A stretch of DNA of 64,000 nucleotides, from contig CP060758.1 in NCBI GenBank assembly GCA_023205875.1, forward strand, positions 1 through 64,000, written 5' to 3'. The position numbers and the translations under genes are program-made. Of this stretch, positions 651 to 64,000 are shown one piece after another (the first letter of the stretch is position 1; every line of letters begins with the position of its first letter). Below the pieces are notes generated by a model. It saw only the letters and a list, made by a program, of their open reading frames with translations. It ran no database searches and was not told the DNA's origin. Source of the stretch: Chloropicon primus (lineage: Eukaryota).

Positions 651-1150
651 GGAAGGACGACCTGGCCAAGGAAAGGAGCCGGAGAACAAAAGAAGCCTAA
701 GAGAAAGACACCGTTTCATCATCCAATATTTCCGTGGTGCCTCCGAGTCACCTCGTTTCCTAAAGCCTTGGGAGTCCGAAAACCTAACGCCTAAAAGGCC
801 CTCTCGTGGGTCCGAAGTGCCTTGAGTAGGGTTTGCCCGAGGAAGGAAGGAAGGACGACCTGGCCAAGGAAAGGAGCCGGAGAACAAAAGAAGCCTAAGA
901 GAAAGACACCGTTGCATCATCCAAGCTTGCCGTGGTGCCTCCGAGTCACCGCGTTTCCTAAAGCCTTGGGAGTCCCAAAACCTAACACCTAAAAGGCCCT
1001 CTCGTGGGTCCGAAGTGTCTTGAGTAGGGTTTGCCCGAGGAAGAAAGGAAGGACGACTTGGCCAAGGAAAGGAGCCGGGGAACAAAAGAAGCCTAAGAGA
1101 AAGACACCGTTGCATCATCCAAGCTTTCCGTGGTGCATCCAAGCCACCGC
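651..1150. repeat. Subtelomeric tandem repeat, 198-bp unit, about 2.5 copies
   Basis: GGAAGGACGAC(C/T)TGGCCAAGGAAAGGAGCCGG starts at 651, 849 and 1047; copies differ by scattered substitutions. Confidence 0.93.
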
Positions 1151-1810
1151 ATGTTTTCCTTCTGGTTTAGGTCTTAAGTGTGATCTGGGTTTTAGTCGGC
1201 CCTAAACCAGGTCGCATAAGACGACGGATTCCAGCAGAAGAGTGGATCAGGGTAAGGTTTACGATTGGACCTCGTTATTCTCTGGTGCCCTAGATTGCAC
1301 TCCAGCCGGAACAAGTCTCTCCATCACGGACTCCATTCACATAACATCATCATCATCCATGGAGGTCTGTGGTTTGGGTTTTTGTGGTCCGACAGATCGA
1401 CCTCTACAGGTTCAAGGACGACGGGAAGATACACGATATTAAAGGAGTATCCAAATATAAAATACAAACCCCTTCTGACAAAGTTTCACAACCATCGGAC
1501 ACGAACTGGATCCGTCACTCCACTATTCGTACCGAAAAGTAGGCCCAAAATGGACAATAATAGCAACATCTCCACGGAGGCGGACGGCGGGGGGCAAGTG
1601 CCAGAAGAAGAAGAAGGAAGGGAAGCGACGGCGCGGCGAGCAAAGAGACCAGAGAGAGAGACAGAGCGGGTATCTTTGTAAGGAAACGCTTTCTTTCTTT
1701 CTTTCGTCTGGTCTGGGTGCGGGACGCTCAAGGTTTGAAAACAAGAGCTCAAGGGGGGAAGAGAGAGAATCCAGCCAGCCTACCAACACGCCCACGAGCG
1801 AACCGGAACC

Positions 1811-2587
1811 ATGGACAACGTGGGTTCTGTCATGACAAAGTGGGTGGCCCCACTGTTTGGGGTCATCATGGCGAATATCATGTTCGCGACGCCGATGAGT
1901 GCGGTGCTGAAGGCGAGGAAGGACGAGAGCCTTGGGACGTTGAACCCCATCCCTTGGCCGGCCATCACGGGGAACTGCATCGCTTGGATCGGGTACAGCT
2001 ACTTCAAGGGGGACTGGTTCGTGTTCTGCGCCAACCAGCCGGGTTTCCTCATGGGGATGTTCTACTCCCTCACCGCGGTGGGGCTGGCGCCGAGGAAGAC
2101 GAGGGACCAGCTGATCACGATATTTTTGCTGCTGTCCTTGGTGCTGCCCAGCTCCGGGGTCGTGCTCTCCGTGGCGCTCGGGGACTCCGTGTCGCACAAG
2201 AAGAAGACTTTCATTTGGGGGCTCCTGTGCAACTTGATCCTGGTGATCTACTACTCGGCTCCGCTGAGCACGCTTGTCCACGTGGTGAGAACGAAGTCGG
2301 CCTCCTCCCTGCACTGGCCATCGTGCTTGATGAACTTCTGCAACAGCACCTGCTGGATCGCTTACGGCGCGGCCATCCAGGACTACTTCATCTTGAGTCC
2401 AAACGCCGCGGGTATGGTCCTTTCTCTCATCCAGTTGGCTTTGATCTTGGTCTACAAGGGCGGGGACGAGGGTGGCAAGACGTTCTTTATGTCAAACGAC
2501 GCAGACCAGGGGGCCCAGGACAACGAGGCGGTCGCCCGGACCAACTCCAAGGAGAGGTTGTTCGACTCCAGCAAGCCCTCGGTGTGA
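1811..2587 (+). CDS. SWEET: SWEET (MtN3/saliva) sugar transporter
   Basis: 258 aa, about 7 TM; two MtN3 repeats (MFATPM..LNPIPW..NCIAWIGY; YYSAPLSTL..VRTKSASSL..WIAYG..PN). Confidence 0.92.
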   Translation: MDNVGSVMTKWVAPLFGVIMANIMFATPMSAVLKARKDESLGTLNPIPWPAITGNCIAWIGYSYFKGDWFVFCANQPGFLMGMFYSLTAVGLAPRKTRDQLITIFLLLSLVLPSSGVVLSVALGDSVSHKKKTFIWGLLCNLILVIYYSAPLSTLVHVVRTKSASSLHWPSCLMNFCNSTCWIAYGAAIQDYFILSPNAAGMVLSLIQLALILVYKGGDEGGKTFFMSNDADQGAQDNEAVARTNSKERLFDSSKPSV

Positions 2588-3011
2588 TTCTGTCGAGCGA
2601 GGGAGGCAAGGACGGGCCACCCGCGGTTCCAACTCTCGTTCGAAGCGAAAATATTGTACTTTGGTTGACCTAAACCCCACCCCCACCCCCCGAGCGAGCG
2701 CATACTGGTGTGGACCTCCGCTCGGCGTCACGTCACGCACGTATCTACCTCTGTCTCTGTCTCTGTCTCTGTCTCGGTGGTTGGTTTGTATTACTAGTTT
2801 TCTTCTATTCTTTATTTTTTGTCTTGGTCTTGGTCTTGGTCTTGGTCTTTGTGTTGTGTTATGTCTCCTCCTCCTGGTGTGGTTGTGTCCTCCTCCTGTC
2901 CTCCTCATTCAGCTCAGCGAGGCCAGGAGGAGGACACACCAGCCACCAGCACCAGGAGGAGGAGGACGACCACGAGGACGACCACGAGGAGGAGGAGGAG
3001 GACGGTTGTGG

Positions 3012-3959
3012 ATGGGGAAGGACGCGACCGAGGCCACCGGGGGCGAGATGACTGCTCGTGGTGCGGCGACCTCGGGCCCCGGGGACCCACCGAACACAAC
3101 CACGAGCAGGGGAGGTGGAGGGGGAGGGGTGGGATTGGACAAGGACAGGGACTCTGGAAAGGGTGCGGAGGCTCTTCTGAGGGAGTTCATGCTGGACGTG
3201 AGCGATGCCCGTCGGACGGCGGAGTGCGACCGGGTCCTCGGGTGCTTCAAGCTCAACCCTTACGAGATTTTGAGTCTGTGGAAGCAGGACCTTGCGACCA
3301 GCAGCGAGATCAGGAGACAGTTCCGCCAGGTCAGTCTTCTCGTCCACCCGGACAAGTGCAAGCACAAGGACGCCAAGGCGGCGTTCGAGCTGGTCCAGAA
3401 GGCTTACAAGGACCTGTGCGACGAGGAGGCGAAAAGGGAGGCAGACGCCACCATAAGGCACGCCAGGTTGGAGCTCAGGAAGGAGAGGAGGAAACTCACC
3501 TCCAAGGATAATGCTTACCTCGCTGCTGCGGCCTTGCGGACGGCGACGACGGCGGCAGCAGCAGGAAAGGCCAAGGAGGGTGAGGGCGCCGCGCCCGGCG
3601 GGGACAACGAGGCCAAGGAAGGAGCCGAGAAGCCTGGAGCCGAGGCCGGGGAGGGGGAGGGGAGGACCGTTCCGGTGGGTGTCGCCCAGCTGGAGGCGGA
3701 GTACGAGGCCAGCGAGGGGTTCCAGAAGCAGCTTCGATTGAAGGCCCAGGAGCTGATGACCCAGCTGGAGTGGAGGAGGAGGCAGCTCGGCAAGAGGCTC
3801 AAGGGGGAGAAGGAGCGGGTGGACAAAGAGGCGGAGAACTTCAAGGCAGAGATGAAGAAGAAGGCAAAGGAAAAGAACACTTGGGAGAAGGGGAGGGAGA
3901 AGAGAGCCTCGAACTGGAGGGACTTCATGCAGAAGAAGAAGAAGAAGCGGAAGGTCTGA
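3012..3959 (+). CDS. DNAJC8/SPF31-like J-domain protein
   Basis: VLGCFKLNPYEIL, SLLVHPDK J-domain, C-terminal WEKGREKRASNWRDF; ATG at 3012. Confidence 0.85.
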   Translation: MGKDATEATGGEMTARGAATSGPGDPPNTTTSRGGGGGGVGLDKDRDSGKGAEALLREFMLDVSDARRTAECDRVLGCFKLNPYEILSLWKQDLATSSEIRRQFRQVSLLVHPDKCKHKDAKAAFELVQKAYKDLCDEEAKREADATIRHARLELRKERRKLTSKDNAYLAAAALRTATTAAAAGKAKEGEGAAPGGDNEAKEGAEKPGAEAGEGEGRTVPVGVAQLEAEYEASEGFQKQLRLKAQELMTQLEWRRRQLGKRLKGEKERVDKEAENFKAEMKKKAKEKNTWEKGREKRASNWRDFMQKKKKKRKV

Positions 3960-4119
3960 CGAGGATCCATTCTTTCGAGGCGCGGACAGGGAGAGGAAGG
4001 AAACGATCATCTGGGACGAAGAATCAGCACTGTACTACAATCTGGCCCCCGGGCCTTGACCCATGCCACGCTCCCAGAATCCACCAAAGGTAAAGCAACG
4101 ATTTATGCGATCCATTACG

Positions 4120-4350
4120 CATTTTACACAAACCAAAGCCCATGCCGTGTAAGCAGCTCCGTTGTGCTTGGACTGGTCCATGCGTTCCTCCTGAAACCTA
4201 ACCACACCCCCGATGAGTCCGAGGACGACGGCGGCCCACGGCTCAGTCACGTTGCAGCCCGCGGTGATGCTGTTGAACAGTTGTCGGTGTTGTTGGTGTT
4301 GTTGTGTCGCCCTCGTCCCGGTGGCGGTCCTGATCCTTGTGTTTTGTCTT
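4120..4350 (-). pseudogene. Collapsed inverted fragment of an ammonium transporter gene
   Basis: 4201-4272 is the reverse complement of AMT 5895-5966 (71/72 identical); the adjacent minus-strand sequence encodes EERMDQSKHNGAAY, resembling the AMT C-terminus EEKGMDESKHGGKAY. Confidence 0.75.
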
Positions 4351-5043
4351 ATCTTGTCCAGGGAATGGCGTGGTGTTCCGTTTCCCTCTGTTTTCCTTTG
4401 TAATCCCATCATACGGAGTTTTCGTTTTAAGGCCCTAAAAAGATGACGCATCCAAAGCACGCTCAACAAGCTACACAAAAACAAGAAAGGACTGGACCTT
4501 GGCCTTGACCTTGGCCTTGGGACTCTCAAAAAGCAACCATCCATCCATCCATCCATCCACCGAAAACACGCAACGAGAACTATACGGTCGGTTCGGAGCC
4601 GGGTACCTCAGGTTGTCCGTTTGTAGGTTCCTCGTTGTCCCTTGTGTGTGTGTTCGGCGCCTCCGTTCCCTCCCGTGTGTCTGTCCCTTGTGTGTTGATC
4701 TTTCCTTCCTGTGTGTCCTGTGCTCCACTCCCTTCGTTCCTCGTGTCATGTGTCCAGTCCTGTAGGAATGGTCTTGCTGCCCCCCCCCCTCCCCTCCCCT
4801 CTCCTGGTGGGCGCTTGAGAGCCACAGATTCACGACATCACGTGATGTGACGACGCGGCGCGGCGACAAACACAGCAGCAACAAACAACACCAACGATAC
4901 TGCAAGATACGTCAGGAACAACAAACACAAGACGGGATCTTGGAGGCGTAATACACACCGGCCATATCTTAAACCCCACTCCACTTCATCTTCATCAACA
5001 AAAAACAAAAACAAACCACGCCACACACGCCATCCACGCCACC

Positions 5044-6306
5044 ATGAGACACTTGCTGCAGGAGGACACCACTGCGGCCGACTGCTTCTGGCTCTTTTTC
5101 GGGGGCTGCCTCGTGTTCTTCATGCAGGCGGGCTTCGCGCTTCTGGAGGCCGGGAGCATCAGGGCCAAGAACGTCAAGAACATACTCATCAAGAATTGCT
5201 TGGATGCTTGTATTGGAGCGATGTTGTGGTGGTTCTGCGGGTACAGCTTCGCCTTCGGGGTCGAGGGAGACTCGCCCAACAAGTTCATCGGGGGGAAGGA
5301 CTTCTTCTCCGCACTCGACAAGCCGGACAACACCACCTACTACGCCTTCTGGTTCTTCCAGTGGGCTTTCGCGGCCACGGCTGCCACAATCGTCAGCGGA
5401 GCTGTCGCGGAGCGCTGCGCTTTGACCGGGTACGCGGCCTACACCTGCTTCATCACCGCCTTTGTGTACCCAGTCGTCGTGCACTGGACCTGGAGCAGCG
5501 AGGGGTGGCTGACTGACGGAGACATCGGACCAGGATTCTTGGACTTTGCCGGGAGCGGCGTCGTTCACATGACAGGAGGCGGGGCCGCCCTCGTGGGAGC
5601 CTACTTCCTCGGACCCCGCATCGGAAAGTTTGGCGCGGACGGAAAGCCCGTGGATATCCCGGGCCACTCCTCCACCCTCCAGTGCCTCGGCACCTTCATC
5701 CTCTGGTTCGGCTGGTACGGTTTCAACTGCTGCTCCACCGGCGCTTGGGGCGACATGGCCCTGGCCACAAAGTGCGCCGTGACCACCACCATGGCCGCCG
5801 CTTCTGGCGGAATCTCCGCCTTGATGATGGAGGTCATCATGGGAAACTCCGCCGACTTGCCTCCTATCCTGAACGGGATCTTGGCCGGACTCGTCAGCAT
5901 CACCGCGGGCTGCAACGTGACTGAGCCGTGGGCCGCCGTCGTCCTCGGACTCATCGGCGGTGTGGTGTACACCTTCGCTTGCAAGCTTCTCCTCAAGCTC
6001 CAGATTGACGATCCTCTGAGCGCTGCCCCTGTCCACTTCTTCTGCGGTGCCTGGGGCTGCATCGGAACTGGACTCTTCGCTTCCAAGAGGTACAACGGCC
6101 TTCTCACGGGCGGCTCGACGGGAGGAAAGCAGCTTGGCATGCAGTGCCTCGGCGTGCTGGCCATTGCGGCTTGGACCTGCATCGTTTCCGGAATTCTCTT
6201 CTACGTGCTCAAGCTTGTCGGAAAGTTTCGCGTCAGCATCGAAGTGGAGGAGAAGGGAATGGATGAATCCAAGCACGGTGGAAAGGCTTACGAGCTGAGT
6301 GACTAA
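5044..6306 (+). CDS. AMT: Ammonium transporter (Amt family, AMT1-like)
   Basis: FFMQAGFALLEAG, FQWAFAATAATIVSGAVAER, DFAGSGVVH, LWFGWYGFN, DDPLSAAPVH motifs. Confidence 0.96.
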   Translation: MRHLLQEDTTAADCFWLFFGGCLVFFMQAGFALLEAGSIRAKNVKNILIKNCLDACIGAMLWWFCGYSFAFGVEGDSPNKFIGGKDFFSALDKPDNTTYYAFWFFQWAFAATAATIVSGAVAERCALTGYAAYTCFITAFVYPVVVHWTWSSEGWLTDGDIGPGFLDFAGSGVVHMTGGGAALVGAYFLGPRIGKFGADGKPVDIPGHSSTLQCLGTFILWFGWYGFNCCSTGAWGDMALATKCAVTTTMAAASGGISALMMEVIMGNSADLPPILNGILAGLVSITAGCNVTEPWAAVVLGLIGGVVYTFACKLLLKLQIDDPLSAAPVHFFCGAWGCIGTGLFASKRYNGLLTGGSTGGKQLGMQCLGVLAIAAWTCIVSGILFYVLKLVGKFRVSIEVEEKGMDESKHGGKAYELSD

Positions 6307-50796: not shown

Positions 50797-51852
50797 ATGT
50801 GGAACGCGGAGGACCAGCAGACCGACCTGCAGAGGATTCTGAACCGAGCCGAGGGCGGGGAGGGAGGCCTGAACACCGAGAGGCTCGTGCACCTCCAGCA
50901 GCAGCAGCAGGCGCAGCAGTCGGACCTGAACGCCATTATGGCGCTGGAGATGGCCGAGCGGAGCAGGATGTCCCAGCACCTCATGGCGCAGCAGATGCAG
51001 CAGAAGGTGAAGGTGAAGTGCGAGAACTGCCACGTCCTCCTGGAGGTGTCGGTCCCGCCCAACCACCCGAGCGAGACCATGATCGTGAGATGCGGCAACT
51101 GCAGCAGCCTCCTGGAGGTGGTGCTGAGGCCGCAGGAGGCGGACCCGGGTAACTATGAGAGCCTGCTGAACCAGCACCTGCGGAGGTACAGGGAGCAGGG
51201 CGGCCAGATGATGCCGGTGTCCTTCGACAGCATGCGGAGGGAGGACGTCACGTACGAGGACCAGCTGGCCAGGGCGAGCCAGTTGGCCATGCTCAAGCAG
51301 TACGCGGAGCAGCAGAACAGCGAGGAGCAGGGCAGGTCCAGGAGAAAGAGGAAGAAGGACCCCAGCAAGCCGAAGAAGCTCTCCAAGTACAACGAGTTCG
51401 TGAGCGCCGAGGTGAAGAGGCTCAAGCAGTGCTCGGAGAACTACGACAACAAGGAGATGTTCAAGATTGCAGCGGCCAACTGGAAGCACGCCAAGGAGAA
51501 CCCCGCGAACGCGGGAAAATTCAGCTCGGACGCCGGGCCCTCGGACACCATGTCCACGCTCGGGCACGCTGACCTCGCCGCCCACCTCGCGGCGAGCCGC
51601 GGGGAGAAGCTCCTCGAGCTCACCCTGGACTGCTCGTCGCCGGAAGATGACGTCAAAGTGAGCTTCGAGTTCGACCTCTCGCGGGGGAACGGGGAGCACC
51701 GGAACCAGAACGACAAGGGCGCATCCAACATCACGAGCGAGGAACCGGGGGACAAGGACAACACCGACGCCGTCCTCCCCGACAAGGAGGATCTTTTGGC
51801 AGAGCGATACTACATGGACCCTTGTAACCTCGTCCCCCGCCCGCCCATGTAA
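50797..51852 (+). CDS. YABBY-like transcription factor (C2C2 zinc finger + YABBY/HMG-like domain)
   Basis: VKCENCHVLLEVSVP..VRCGNCSSLL and KPKKLSKYNEFVSAEVKRLK..KEMFKIAAANWKH. Confidence 0.85.
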   Translation: MWNAEDQQTDLQRILNRAEGGEGGLNTERLVHLQQQQQAQQSDLNAIMALEMAERSRMSQHLMAQQMQQKVKVKCENCHVLLEVSVPPNHPSETMIVRCGNCSSLLEVVLRPQEADPGNYESLLNQHLRRYREQGGQMMPVSFDSMRREDVTYEDQLARASQLAMLKQYAEQQNSEEQGRSRRKRKKDPSKPKKLSKYNEFVSAEVKRLKQCSENYDNKEMFKIAAANWKHAKENPANAGKFSSDAGPSDTMSTLGHADLAAHLAASRGEKLLELTLDCSSPEDDVKVSFEFDLSRGNGEHRNQNDKGASNITSEEPGDKDNTDAVLPDKEDLLAERYYMDPCNLVPRPPM

Positions 51853-61782: not shown

Positions 61783-62847
61783 TCAGGAGGAGGCGTCGAC
61801 GACGACGTCCGAGAAGTTGAGCTCGACGAGGAGGTTCCAGTTCAGGCCGGACTTGTGCCTGTACTTGTACCGGTCGAGCTCCCTGGCCTCGAGGACGACC
61901 TGGTTCCCCTTGATGTACCTCGTGTTCAGCCAAAGGTAGTACTCCCCCGCCTTGTCCTTCAGCTTGACCTTGAAGTCCTCCTCGACCTGGACGGGGAAGG
62001 GCAGGACGAACTCGGCCTCGACGGCGTCGATCTGCTTCCACTTGCTCCTCGAGTTCCCCGACAGCATCTCGGAGGAGAACACCAGCTTCTCGGCCGAGTG
62101 GTCGCTGACGTACACCGCGGGGTACAGGTGCGGCGCCGTGTGGTGGAGCTTGAGGCTCGCCAGCCTGAGCCGCCGCCCCGCCCCCCCCACCTCCCCCGGG
62201 GACTTGAGCAGGAGCTCGTAGTACCTGAGGTACCTCTGCTGGGACGCCAGGGTCAGGCCCTTGCCGTCGTGCGTCCTCCTGAGGTTGTAGTACGCCACGG
62301 CCTCCTCCGCGGTGTCCGCGTAGCTCAAGTAGATCAGCAGGCAGCAGATCATCAGCCCCGTCCGGCTCTTCCCCGCCTTGCAGTGCACCACGACCACGTG
62401 GCTCATGCTCTGCCTCAGCCACGACTTGGCGGACTCCACGAACGCCTGGATGAGCCGAAGGGGCGGGCAGTTGTGGTCGTCGAAGGGGAAGCTCGCCACC
62501 TTCCCGTCGAAGAGCGCCGCGTCGTACGTCCGCTCAGAGCAAAGGTTGTAGATCTTGTACTTCCCCCCGGGGTGCTTCTCGTCCAAGAAAGACGTGACGT
62601 GACCCATGTGGTTCCGGTACAAGCCCTCCACGTACCCGAGCACCCCGCTGCTCCGGTCCCCCGCCGGGAACCCCATCGCGATCACGTTCTCCGTGATGTA
62701 AGACAAGTCCAAGTCGTACTCGCTGTCCTTGTACCGCCGCTTCTTCTGAGACACCAAAGACCGCGCGAAACGCGTCAGGGCGTTCCCCTTCGAGCGCCCG
62801 GAACCACCTCGAGGGCGCGCCATCCGACTCCTCTCGCCATCCGCCAT
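61783..62847 (-). CDS. PTEN: PTEN-family phosphatase
   Basis: LVSQKKRRY..DLDLSYIT, YNLCSERTYD, FPFDDHNCP, HCKAGKSRTG, SQQRY; C2-like tail. Confidence 0.93.
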   Translation of the reverse strand: MADGERSRMARPRGGSGRSKGNALTRFARSLVSQKKRRYKDSEYDLDLSYITENVIAMGFPAGDRSSGVLGYVEGLYRNHMGHVTSFLDEKHPGGKYKIYNLCSERTYDAALFDGKVASFPFDDHNCPPLRLIQAFVESAKSWLRQSMSHVVVVHCKAGKSRTGLMICCLLIYLSYADTAEEAVAYYNLRRTHDGKGLTLASQQRYLRYYELLLKSPGEVGGAGRRLRLASLKLHHTAPHLYPAVYVSDHSAEKLVFSSEMLSGNSRSKWKQIDAVEAEFVLPFPVQVEEDFKVKLKDKAGEYYLWLNTRYIKGNQVVLEARELDRYKYRHKSGLNWNLLVELNFSDVVVDASS

Positions 62848-63022
62848 CTCTCCGACTTCTGGCGGCGGCGGGACGGCGGGACACCTCAACCTCGAGGTCG
62901 AGACACCTCCGCCACAGCCTCGGCGTCGCTCTCGTCCTCCACAGTCCGCTGCTGCTCTCGCGCTCCACAGTCCGCTGGTGCTCTCGCGCTCCTCGGCGCT
63001 CCGGCTCCATCACACAGCGCTG

Positions 63023-63028
63023 TATAAA
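63023..63028 (+). promoter_or_regulatory. TATA box of the permuted tRNA gene (putative Pol III)
   Basis: TATAAA about 25 nt upstream of the leader that pairs with the trailer. Confidence 0.55.
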
Positions 63029-63066
63029 GACGAAAATGTGATATGATTCATGTGTACCTAATGGAC

Positions 63067-63246
63067 ATCTAAAGGTCGTGTGTTCGATCCACACTCATCG
63101 CAGTAAAGTCAGCATTTACTCCGCGCGAAACCTACTCACCGCGTGGCACTTGAGATGAACCAAACCCTAATCCAGACTTCCCTCTTACTCTGCCTCGTCG
63201 TACCGTTCGGCGATGATAGCTCAGTTGGGAGAGCGTTAGACTGAAG
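63067..63246 (+). tRNA. trnF-GAA: Circularly permuted tRNA-Phe(GAA): 3' half (nt 38-73) 63067-63102; 5' half (nt 1-37) 63210-63246
   Basis: The joined halves give a full cloverleaf: acceptor GCGATGA/TCATCGC, D stem GCTC/GAGC, anticodon stem TTAGA/TCTAA with loop CT-GAA-GA, T stem GTGTG/CACAC with TTCGATC, discriminator A. Confidence 0.93.
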
Positions 63247-64000
63247 TTACGGTGCACACCCCAGGAGGAGGCGGCGAAACTACAGTCGCCTCTCCTCTTG
63301 CTCCGCGAGATAAGGGTTCGGTGAGAGACGTTAAATATACGAGCACAATAAGATCACAATAAGATCGTAACGGCGGAGGACGGCGAGGAGGACGAGAAGA
63401 CCGCGACCAGAGAGAGAGCGATGAGTTACCTCCTGGAATACTACAGCCGCGGGTTGCCGACGAAGAAGAGGAGACTGACGAATACTGGGACGTCATGTGA
63501 AGAAGGGGCTGGTGGCGCCACCCCGGCCGCGGTTCTCCAGGGGGATGGCGCCCAAGGATGGCGGGTGGCGCCCAAGGATTGTGGTGCCAATGTCTCTGTC
63601 TTCACCCACTTGCAGGGCAGCGGGCAGCCGTGCGGCAAGCCTGGACACCAACGCTTGCACAGTGGCCATGGCGACCTCCGCGGGACCTCATAGGGAGCGG
63701 GAGATGGCCGCCATCGAGGAGAACGCGGATCCGACGACGCTTCTCAATGCGGATGGACTTCTTGCCTCTCTTCGCTTCGCAGACGAATTAGCTGGCGCGC
63801 CGCCCACCCTTGCACGCGAGGGTACACGGGCGGAGCGAACTCGCGAGCCTGAGGAGCTGACCCTGGTCCGCGTGGTCCGAGGCCGTGGCGGAGTCCACCT
63901 GGAGCGCGTTGCGGGCTTGAAAGAACTGACCCACTGCATCGTCTTCCTCCGCGAGTCCCTTGCGCGGGAGGGGCTTGGGAACAAGCTCGCTGGTCAGGCG

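What the first reader, a model, noticed from the sequence alone, without database searches (positions are those of the whole stretch)
63020..63260. Circularly permuted tRNA-Phe(GAA) gene: 3' half encoded upstream of 5' half
Seen: ATCTAAAGGTCGTGTGTTCGATCCACACTCATCGCA (63067-63102, tRNA positions 38-73) precedes GCGATGATAGCTCAGTTGGGAGAGCGTTAGACTGAAG (63210-63246, positions 1-37), with a 107-nt spacer between them. All four stems pair perfectly, including the 7-bp acceptor and 5-bp anticodon stems formed between the halves. The break lies at the canonical intron site 37/38. The leader TGTGTACC-TAA-TGGAC (63051-63066) pairs with the trailer TTA-C-GGTGCACA (63247-63258). This forms a relaxed bulge-helix-bulge-like junction that keeps the C32:G anticodon-intron pair and a 3-nt 3'-site bulge. 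TATAAA lies at 63023. Known: permuted tRNA genes occur in Cyanidioschyzon merolae, some prasinophytes, a chlorarachniophyte nucleomorph and Thermofilum; the described maturation runs through a circular intermediate (endonuclease cut, ligation, then RNase P/tRNase Z). Inference: this is a functional permuted gene that standard tRNA scanners would miss. I cannot tell from here whether it has been reported for this lineage or this isotype.
Basis: partly seen in the sequence, partly recalled or inferred. Interest (0 to 1): 0.93.

Follow-up and report, generated by a model that had tools for sequence, protein, structure and literature searches.

The report
Back-to-front phenylalanine tRNA gene
A tiny green alga carries a phenylalanine tRNA gene with its two halves in swapped order, likely re-joined by the tRNA-splicing enzyme as in a few other algae; I found no report of this layout for this algal class or this tRNA type, and a multi-copy element encoding a resolvase-like protein sits where the transcription stop signal would be expected.

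Summary
Observation confirmed base for base. The rejoined halves give a 73-nt tRNA-Phe(GAA) with 21 of 21 stem pairs Watson-Crick. ARAGORN scores it 118.8; 0 of 1000 shuffled windows reach that. Its 16 differences from the contiguous Ostreococcus tauri tRNA-Phe all fall in 8 stem pairs changed on both sides (by eye). Contigs of two public DNA runs cross the locus unbroken and show no second copy. Neighbouring proteins cluster with Chloropicon primus proteins. This is a type II (37/38) permuted tRNA gene, a known kind. Class, isotype and the 107-nt spacer (listed range 1-74) are not in the papers I could read; two isotype lists were unreadable. No RNA evidence was obtainable. Its two other readable left flanks are also tRNA 3' ends. 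The scan noted permuted tRNAs before in other genomes, never this one.

The parts
63023..63028 (+). TATA box, predicted upstream RNA polymerase III promoter
   Evidence: Sequence. 8 TATAAA on both strands of the 64-kb window, so about 0.003 expected in a given 50-nt stretch; first T lies 44 nt before tRNA position 38. Function inferred from PMC3978253 section 5.
63049..63050 (+). CA dinucleotide, predicted transcription start at A63050, 27 nt from the first T of the TATA box and directly before the leader helix
   Evidence: Sequence, distance. The plant-type TATA-to-CA start spacing is recalled, not tested. The 4 differences seen in runs X1, X2, X14 lie at 63043-63048, just before it.
63051..63066 (+). 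Leader, equivalent to the 3' part of a 37/38 intron; supplies the G opposite C32, two nt of the 3-nt bulge before A38, and one strand of the outer helix
   Evidence: Pairing table and folds; outer helix pair probabilities 0.76-1.0 in the precursor ensemble.
63067..63102 (+). 3' half of tRNA-Phe (positions 38-73; discriminator A73, no encoded CCA)
63103..63209 (+). 107-nt intervening sequence (acceptor loop of the predicted circle); single copy; no T4 run, no TATAAA
   Evidence: flat single-copy depth in X1; one substitution and one 1-nt insertion in other runs.
63210..63246 (+). 5' half of tRNA-Phe (positions 1-37; G20, anticodon GAA, G37)
   Evidence: only match in the window at up to 3 mismatches.
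63247..63258 (+). Trailer, equivalent to the 5' part of a 37/38 intron; pairs with the leader (8-bp outer helix, 7 Watson-Crick + 1 G.U, plus 2-3 A-U pairs)
63262..63300 (+). Strong hairpin at the left end of the downstream repeat; candidate substitute 3' boundary of the precursor (untested)
   Evidence: Fold of 63259-63310, -24.3 kcal/mol; no shuffle control run on it.
63263..64000 (+). Left part of a multi-copy element that runs off the window; its other readable left flanks are tRNA 3' ends
   Evidence: Summed contig depth 952-5271 against 98 for single-copy DNA in run X1; loose ends at 63263 (X1) and 63265 (X2).
63421..64000 (+). 5' part of the element's gene: a protein of about 900-950 aa with two resolvase (serine recombinase) domains in other copies; this copy changes frame near 63636 against the longest database proteins
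   Evidence: other copies carry 17 more nt behind 63635.
61783..62847 (-). Context only: divergent PTEN2-like phosphatase gene
   Evidence: Pfam PTEN2_C2 E=3.9e-31.

Best explanation
The locus holds the 3' half of a phenylalanine tRNA ahead of its 5' half and is likely a working circularly permuted gene (type II, break at 37/38), probably the alga's only nuclear tRNA-Phe gene, predicted to mature through a spliced circle. Shown: the order of the halves, the perfect cloverleaf on rejoining, the TATA box, the leader/trailer pairing at the break, and the unbroken DNA. Inferred steps: (1) RNA polymerase III starts near A63050 from the upstream TATA box, because the internal B and A boxes are in reversed order. 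(2) One transcript, leader-3' half-spacer-5' half-trailer, folds so that leader and trailer mimic a 37/38 intron: A31:U39 closes the anticodon stem, a 3-nt bulge ends in A38, then C32:G, U33.G, G34.U, an A-A mismatch, a bulge ending after G37, and an outer helix. (3) The tRNA splicing endonuclease cuts before A38 and after G37, and the ligase joins G37 to A38 into a 180-nt circle. (4) RNase P and tRNase Z remove the 107-nt spacer and CCA is added. With no oligo-T behind the gene, the precursor likely runs into the neighbouring repeat, and the cut after G37 would remove that tail whatever its length. Origin, inferred: tandem duplication of an intron-containing gene with loss of the outer halves.
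For: 21 of 21 stem pairs Watson-Crick, and U8, A14, G15:C48, G18, G19, U33, U54-U55-C56, A58 and A73 are in place. 0 of 1000 shuffles reach the score. Against the contiguous O. tauri tRNA-Phe (supplementary table row of PMC3673656; compared by eye), positions 7-48 are identical. All 16 differences lie in 8 stem pairs changed on both sides that still pair, 5 of them bridging the two separated halves. Break, hBH-type junction and TATA within 50 nt match the green-algal type II genes. X1 record 1 (3804 nt) covers 62400-63302 and X2 record 2 covers 62500-63312 in one piece, with 5 other letters each, none in halves, leader or trailer. In these two whole-run layings (90% and 80% likeness) no other record lies on either half, although the tool laid a 38-nt, 4-mismatch piece on the 5' half from metagenome X8. 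Phe codons are used: 225 UUC + 86 UUU of 6852 codons in 10 window ORFs.
Against: No transcript evidence: none of the 4 guessed-RNA runs laid (X4, X5, X7; X6) covers the 3' half or shows the 63246-to-63067 joint. They are contig sets of unknown library type, so this is uninformative. No oligo-T terminator up to 64000, unlike most C. merolae genes. The unconstrained minimum-energy fold of the precursor is not the cloverleaf: -59.0 against -48.4 kcal/mol with cloverleaf and junction enforced, and acceptor-stem pair probability is about 0 because the spacer can pair with the 5' half. The rejoined tRNA alone also misfolds its D arm in this model, so the model is a weak judge. The central helix has only 1 Watson-Crick pair, 2 wobbles and a mismatch. 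'Only copy' is not proven: the laying tool drops human-like records without notice, tRNA-Phe is very conserved (recalled), and no whole genome was held. No other Chloropicon species could be examined, so there is no covariation test of leader and trailer.
Confidence: 0.82

Rival explanations
1. A formerly working permuted gene silenced or crippled by the element that inserted directly behind it and removed the terminator; another, diverged gene supplies tRNA-Phe.
For: No T4 run; element starts about 5 nt behind the trailer. Guessed-RNA contigs start in the spacer or 5' half (63147, 63213, 63236) and run into the element, which could be a separate transcript over the gene. The second-copy test has a filter caveat.
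Against: No decay: 21 of 21 pairs intact, TATA intact. No second copy laid in X1 or X2. The two other tRNA 3' ends seen next to the element also have no T run between gene and element (loose ends).
Confidence: 0.09
2. A split gene: the two halves are transcribed separately and joined in trans through the leader/trailer helix, with no circle.
For: The spacer is longer than any of the 34 listed. Guessed-RNA contigs cover the 5' half but never the 3' half. The leader/trailer duplex (-12.8 kcal/mol) could form in trans.
Against: No T4 terminator and no TATAAA in the spacer. The halves are adjacent on one strand. Algal permuted genes tested so far go through one transcript and a circle. Contigs cannot show RNA starts.
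Confidence: 0.05
3. Non-functional inner remnants of two tandem intron-containing genes, or an assembly artefact.
For: Tandem duplication is the proposed origin of permuted genes; a repeat adjoins the locus.
Against: Independent contigs cross the locus unbroken. X14 and X8 each hold a low-depth contig over the TATA box, leader and 3' half in the same order. My scan and ARAGORN find no outer halves in the window. Remnants would not keep perfect cross-half pairing.
Confidence: 0.04

Closest known systems
Type II (junction 37/38) circularly permuted tRNA genes of Mamiellophyceae, Cyanidioschyzon merolae and chlorarachniophyte nucleomorphs (PMC3978253, Table 1; sections 4, 5, 6, 8 and part of 10 read)
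   Same: 3' half ahead of 5' half, break at 37/38, relaxed BHB from leader and trailer, upstream TATA, no encoded CCA, invisible to standard scanners.
   Different: Isotype Phe is not among the 34 listed. Spacer is 107 nt against 1-74. Host class is Chloropicophyceae. No downstream T-stretch. O. tauri's own Phe gene is listed contiguous with no permuted mark.
Permuted tRNA genes of Auxenochlorella (PMC12636532 / PMC12633428, passages read) and of Bathycoccus prasinos and its viruses (PMC3673656, passages read)
   Same: Compact green-algal genomes whose tRNAscan-SE set is completed by permuted genes.
   Different: Other classes. Their isotypes were not visible to me (Auxenochlorella Fig. S1 unreadable; one supplement of PMC3673656 not searched), so Phe may already be among them.
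IS607-type serine-recombinase transposons and Chloropicon Fanzor2 elements (PMC10711439, passages read), for the neighbouring repeat
   Same: Resolvase (PF00239) domain in a multi-copy element of a eukaryote genome.
   Different: Two resolvase motif sets in one 900-950 aa protein with a Cys-rich tail. No TnpB/Fanzor family hit in 6 of 6 proteins scanned. Sits behind tRNA genes, which those passages do not mention (0 occurrences of 'tRNA'). The Chloropicon Fanzor2 elements are described there as cut-and-paste transposons with TIRs and TSDs.

Membership tests
Circularly permuted tRNA gene, type II | 3' half encoded upstream of the 5' half on one strand, separated by an intervening sequence at the acceptor ends | tested here: met
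   unbroken in contigs of X1 and X2.
Circularly permuted tRNA gene, type II | Rejoined halves form an ordinary eukaryotic cloverleaf with consensus residues; CCA not encoded | tested here: met
Circularly permuted tRNA gene, type II | Junction at 37/38 with a predicted BHB (hBH) motif formed by leader and trailer | tested here: met
   3-nt bulge before A38, C32:G, two wobbles, one mismatch, outer helix. Predicted, relaxed form. ARAGORN alone cannot fix the break (37/38 and 38/39 give the same tRNA); the bulge geometry does.
Circularly permuted tRNA gene, type II | TATA-like sequence within 50 bp upstream of the 3' half, and no promoter or terminator in the spacer | tested here: met
Circularly permuted tRNA gene, type II | Accompanying feature, not part of the definition: downstream T-stretch (described for most C. 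merolae genes) | tested here: not met
   No T4 from 62901 to 64000; a repeat occupies the site.
Circularly permuted tRNA gene, type II | One linear precursor, circular intermediate, mature aminoacylated tRNA | not testable with these tools
   Only contigs of guessed-RNA runs were available; no joint seen.
Split (trans-spliced) tRNA genes | Halves at separate loci, each with its own promoter and terminator | tested here: not met
   Halves 107 nt apart; no T4 or TATAAA between them.
IS607 / Fanzor2 element (neighbouring repeat) | Serine-recombinase TnpA | tested here: inconclusive
   PF00239 in 4 of 6 proteins scanned, E 1.1e-5 to 2.6e-10; R-x-S and (D/S)RL(S/T)R motifs twice in the longest copies. 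Size and tandem layout are unlike a small TnpA (recalled).
IS607 / Fanzor2 element (neighbouring repeat) | TnpB/Fanzor nuclease gene and defined ends | tested here: inconclusive
   No such family in the 6 proteins scanned or the 3 scanned against NCBIfam; the rest of the element lies outside the window.

The most novel reading that the evidence does not exclude
The alga's only tRNA-Phe gene is permuted and has lost its oligo-T terminator to an undescribed nuclear mobile element that encodes a tandem serine recombinase and inserts directly behind tRNA genes. Behind this gene the adjoining DNA is the 5' half plus trailer, not a T-arm and acceptor end, yet the element sits at the same few-nucleotide distance from the end of the folded precursor as it does behind two conventional tRNA 3' ends. 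It would therefore be aimed by the RNA polymerase III termination site or machinery, not by tRNA-end sequence homology as bacterial integrases are. The permuted gene is the natural control that shows this.
Probability: 0.3. Interest if true: 0.78.

Novelty: new member of a known kind. Interest (0 to 1): 0.5.

Why it matters
It extends permuted tRNA genes to Chloropicophyceae and, as far as I could read, to phenylalanine. It suggests that the published tRNAscan-SE sets of Chloropicon (46 genes in C. primus, 39-42 in C. roscoffensis) are incomplete. If it is the only copy, an essential tRNA depends on the permuted route with the longest spacer listed so far. A TATA box with a clean predicted start and no oligo-T end makes two open questions testable in a cultured alga with complete genomes: how permuted genes are transcribed, and how their precursors end. 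The neighbouring tandem-resolvase element may be a tRNA-gene-targeting mobile element of a kind I did not find described in eukaryote nuclei.

Tried and rejected
No whole genome is held, so a direct census of tRNA genes was impossible. The metagenome scan with a 5'-half motif gave 1 locus, L001, an unrelated conventional tRNA pair that ARAGORN calls Arg and Leu; dropped. Five viral-contig scans found nothing: 5' half, element end, 3' half, PTEN protein, element protein. Rfam at E<=10 gave 2 matches far below gathering score; chance. Guessed-RNA runs X4, X5, X6, X7 do not cover the 3' half and show no splice joint; a part without cover in contigs is no evidence either way. X14 (1 record, depth 2.3) and X8 look like the same species or conserved pieces, not a second species, so there is no cross-species comparison. 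The lack of differences in the halves between runs is weak: published C. primus strains are 99.91% identical, and the four upstream differences cluster in 6 nt. The B-box regex missed even the real T-arm (it demanded a wrong letter), so it was replaced by the scan. The sigma-70 promoter and terminator scan does not apply to a eukaryote. The PDB search with the element protein gave 2 chance matches. BLASTP did not detect similarity between its two resolvase regions (best E 0.25); the tandem claim rests on Pfam stretches and motifs. X4's loose end at 63265 is a 0.65-agreement consensus of 2 records and was not counted. Earlier scan notes: none for this genome, sequence or element.

Full report
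1. Observation. ARAGORN finds 0 tRNA genes in the 64 kb as it lies. Rfam finds 0 matches at gathering score and no tRNA at E<=10 around the locus. Joining 63210-63246 to 63067-63102 in a script gives a 73-nt tRNA-Phe(GAA), ARAGORN score 118.8, with 7 of 7, 4 of 4, 5 of 5 and 5 of 5 Watson-Crick pairs in the four stems and the consensus residues in place. A permissive permuted-gene scan of both strands finds this locus alone. Of 1000 dinucleotide-preserving shuffles, 54 give any hit, the best scores 110.0 and none reaches 118.8.

2. It is a real tRNA sequence of algal nuclear type. A supplementary table of PMC3673656 lists the O. tauri tRNA-Phe as a contiguous gene with no permuted mark (I saw that row and the head row only). 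By eye, positions 7-48 and the T loop are identical to the rejoined sequence. All 16 differences fall in 8 stem pairs changed on both sides that still pair, 5 of them in the acceptor stem, which here bridges halves 107 nt apart. That is what selection on a joined tRNA leaves.

3. Host. The window is gene-dense and mostly 55-62% GC. The lineage is therefore Chloropicophyceae, most likely C. primus.

4. Not an assembly artefact, and probably single copy. In DNA run X1 one 3804-nt contig covers 62400-63302, and in X2 one contig covers 62500-63312. Each has 5 other letters, at 63043-63048 and 63167, plus a 1-nt spacer insertion in X1; none lies in the halves, leader or trailer. X1 and X2 come from one sample and could be the window's source sample, though they differ from it at these places; X14 and X8 add low-depth contigs over the TATA box, leader and 3' half. 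No second record lies on either half in X1 (90% likeness) or X2 (80%), while a 38-nt piece with 4 mismatches was laid from X8, so the test has some power.

5. Junction and promoter. Leader and trailer imitate a 37/38 intron: A31:U39, a 3-nt bulge ending in A38, C32:G, U33.G, G34.U, an A-A mismatch, a bulge ending after G37, and an 8-bp outer helix with pair probabilities 0.76-1.0. PMC3978253 describes hBH junctions at 37/38 as typical of green-algal permuted genes. Against this, the unconstrained fold of the precursor prefers a spacer-paired form by about 10 kcal/mol, and the helix alone is matched by 56 of 5000 or 457 of 5000 random partners. TATAAA lies 44 nt before A38 and 27 nt before a CA at the leader's start; about 0.003 would be expected by chance in 50 nt.

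6. There is no T4 run from 62901 to 64000. At about 63263 the summed contig depth in X1 rises from 98 to 952-5271: a multi-copy element begins about 5 nt behind the trailer, opening with a -24 kcal/mol hairpin. Its reading frame matches 9 database proteins at 63-97% identity, 7 named C. primus. PF00239 resolvase is found in 4 of 6 scanned, the longest copies carry the catalytic-type motifs twice, and the atlas ranks resolvase clusters first at 0.92. The window's copy changes frame near 63636. The two other left flanks that I could read are, by eye, a T arm, acceptor strand and discriminator followed by 5 and 8 nt and then the element (loose ends in X1, and X2; one record each, the latter at a tenth of single-copy depth). 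Neither shows a T run. So conventional tRNA genes next to this element lack it too, which weakens the case that the missing terminator kills the permuted gene. Three flanks out of perhaps tens of copies is a lead, not a proof of targeting.

7. Mechanism. Most likely (0.82): TATA-driven polymerase III transcript, endonuclease cuts before A38 and after G37, ligation to a 180-nt circle, spacer removal by RNase P and tRNase Z, CCA addition, as shown for other algae. All processing steps are inferred here. None of the 4 guessed-RNA runs laid shows the junction or covers the 3' half, which contigs of unknown library type cannot be expected to do. Rivals: a gene crippled by the insertion (0.09), trans-spliced halves (0.05), remnant or artefact (0.04).

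8. Literature. PMC3978253 (abstract, sections 4 part 1, 5, 6, 8, 10 part 1): 34 genes, no Phe, spacer 1-74 bp. PMC13578239 (passages and supplement search): no mention of Chloropicon. PMC12633428 / PMC12636532 (passages): permuted genes in Auxenochlorella, isotypes only in Fig. S1, which I could not read. PMC3673656 (passages, one table row): 7 permuted genes in Bathycoccus, isotypes unseen. PMC4494063 (passages): nucleomorph Ser genes only. PMC6731263 and PMC12301720 (passages; section 6 of the latter): tRNAs annotated with tRNAscan-SE alone, 0 occurrences of 'permut' in either main text, and none of 'permuted' in the supplements searched, with files 13-20 of the former not searched. Also passages of 10.1101/2021.12.21.473619, 10.64898/2026.07.10.737489, PMC8287931, PMC12718437 and PMC10711439, and a term search without hits in PMC7678280. 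Searches behind 'not found in print': 'permuted tRNA' (74 papers, 40 listed), Chloropicon + permuted, Chloropicon + tRNA genes, permuted + tRNAPhe + green alga, permuted tRNA + Phe + intervening sequence. For the element: (listings only). Soma et al. 2007 and Maruyama et al. 2010 were not read; they are known to me through the review. The scan's earlier notes hold permuted tRNAs in other genomes, among them an Arg locus of a green picoalga (e1-564981, unchecked), and nothing on this genome or sequence.

9. Verdict. A real, well-formed type II permuted tRNA gene: new member of a known kind, with a new host class, a probably new isotype and the longest spacer among those I saw listed. Interest 0.5. 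The bolder reading, a tRNA-targeting tandem serine-recombinase element for which this permuted gene is the natural control, has probability about 0.3 and would deserve about 0.78.

Noticed in passing
window 63263-64000: Multi-copy element encoding a 900-950 aa protein with two resolvase motif sets and a Cys-rich tail. Named copies lie on several C. primus chromosomes. A length-matched search found 7 proteins, all C. primus (only the top 7996 candidates scored); one unnamed metagenome protein is 63% identical over the N-terminal part. 3 of 3 readable left flanks are tRNA gene ends: this locus, a Thr-like end in X1 and a Tyr-like end in X2 (isotypes judged by eye). One more flank was unreadable and both tables were cut (5 and 7 rows not shown).
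   Followed up: partly
run X2, record 3, on window 63265-63305: The junction of the element with the Tyr-like tRNA end has depth 19.4 against 199.1 for single-copy DNA: possibly an insertion present in only part of the cells, possibly an artefact.
   Followed up: no
window 63147-63391: Contigs of three guessed-RNA runs begin in the spacer or 5' half (63147, 63213, 63236) and run into the element; could be read-through precursor tails or an element transcript.
   Followed up: partly
window 63159-63172 and 63309-63322: A plant telo-box-like motif (AAACCCTAA, label recalled) in the spacer; 14 nt there are 86% complementary to a stretch of the element. May be chance.
   Followed up: no
window 63418-63426: 9 nt at the element's start codon are exactly complementary to the acceptor 3' strand 63093-63101, i.e. 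they repeat the tRNA's first 7 nt; probably chance.
   Followed up: no
window 62928-63009: Short 26-nt tandem repeat in the gap between the PTEN-like gene and the TATA box.
   Followed up: no
database proteins P0029, P0032: Two annotated C. primus proteins (FAD oxidoreductase, ferrochelatase) carry the element's N-terminus; likely gene models fused across an element copy.
   Followed up: no
window 50797-51852 +: YABBY-domain protein (Pfam YABBY_N E=4.8e-9) in a unicellular green alga.
   Followed up: no
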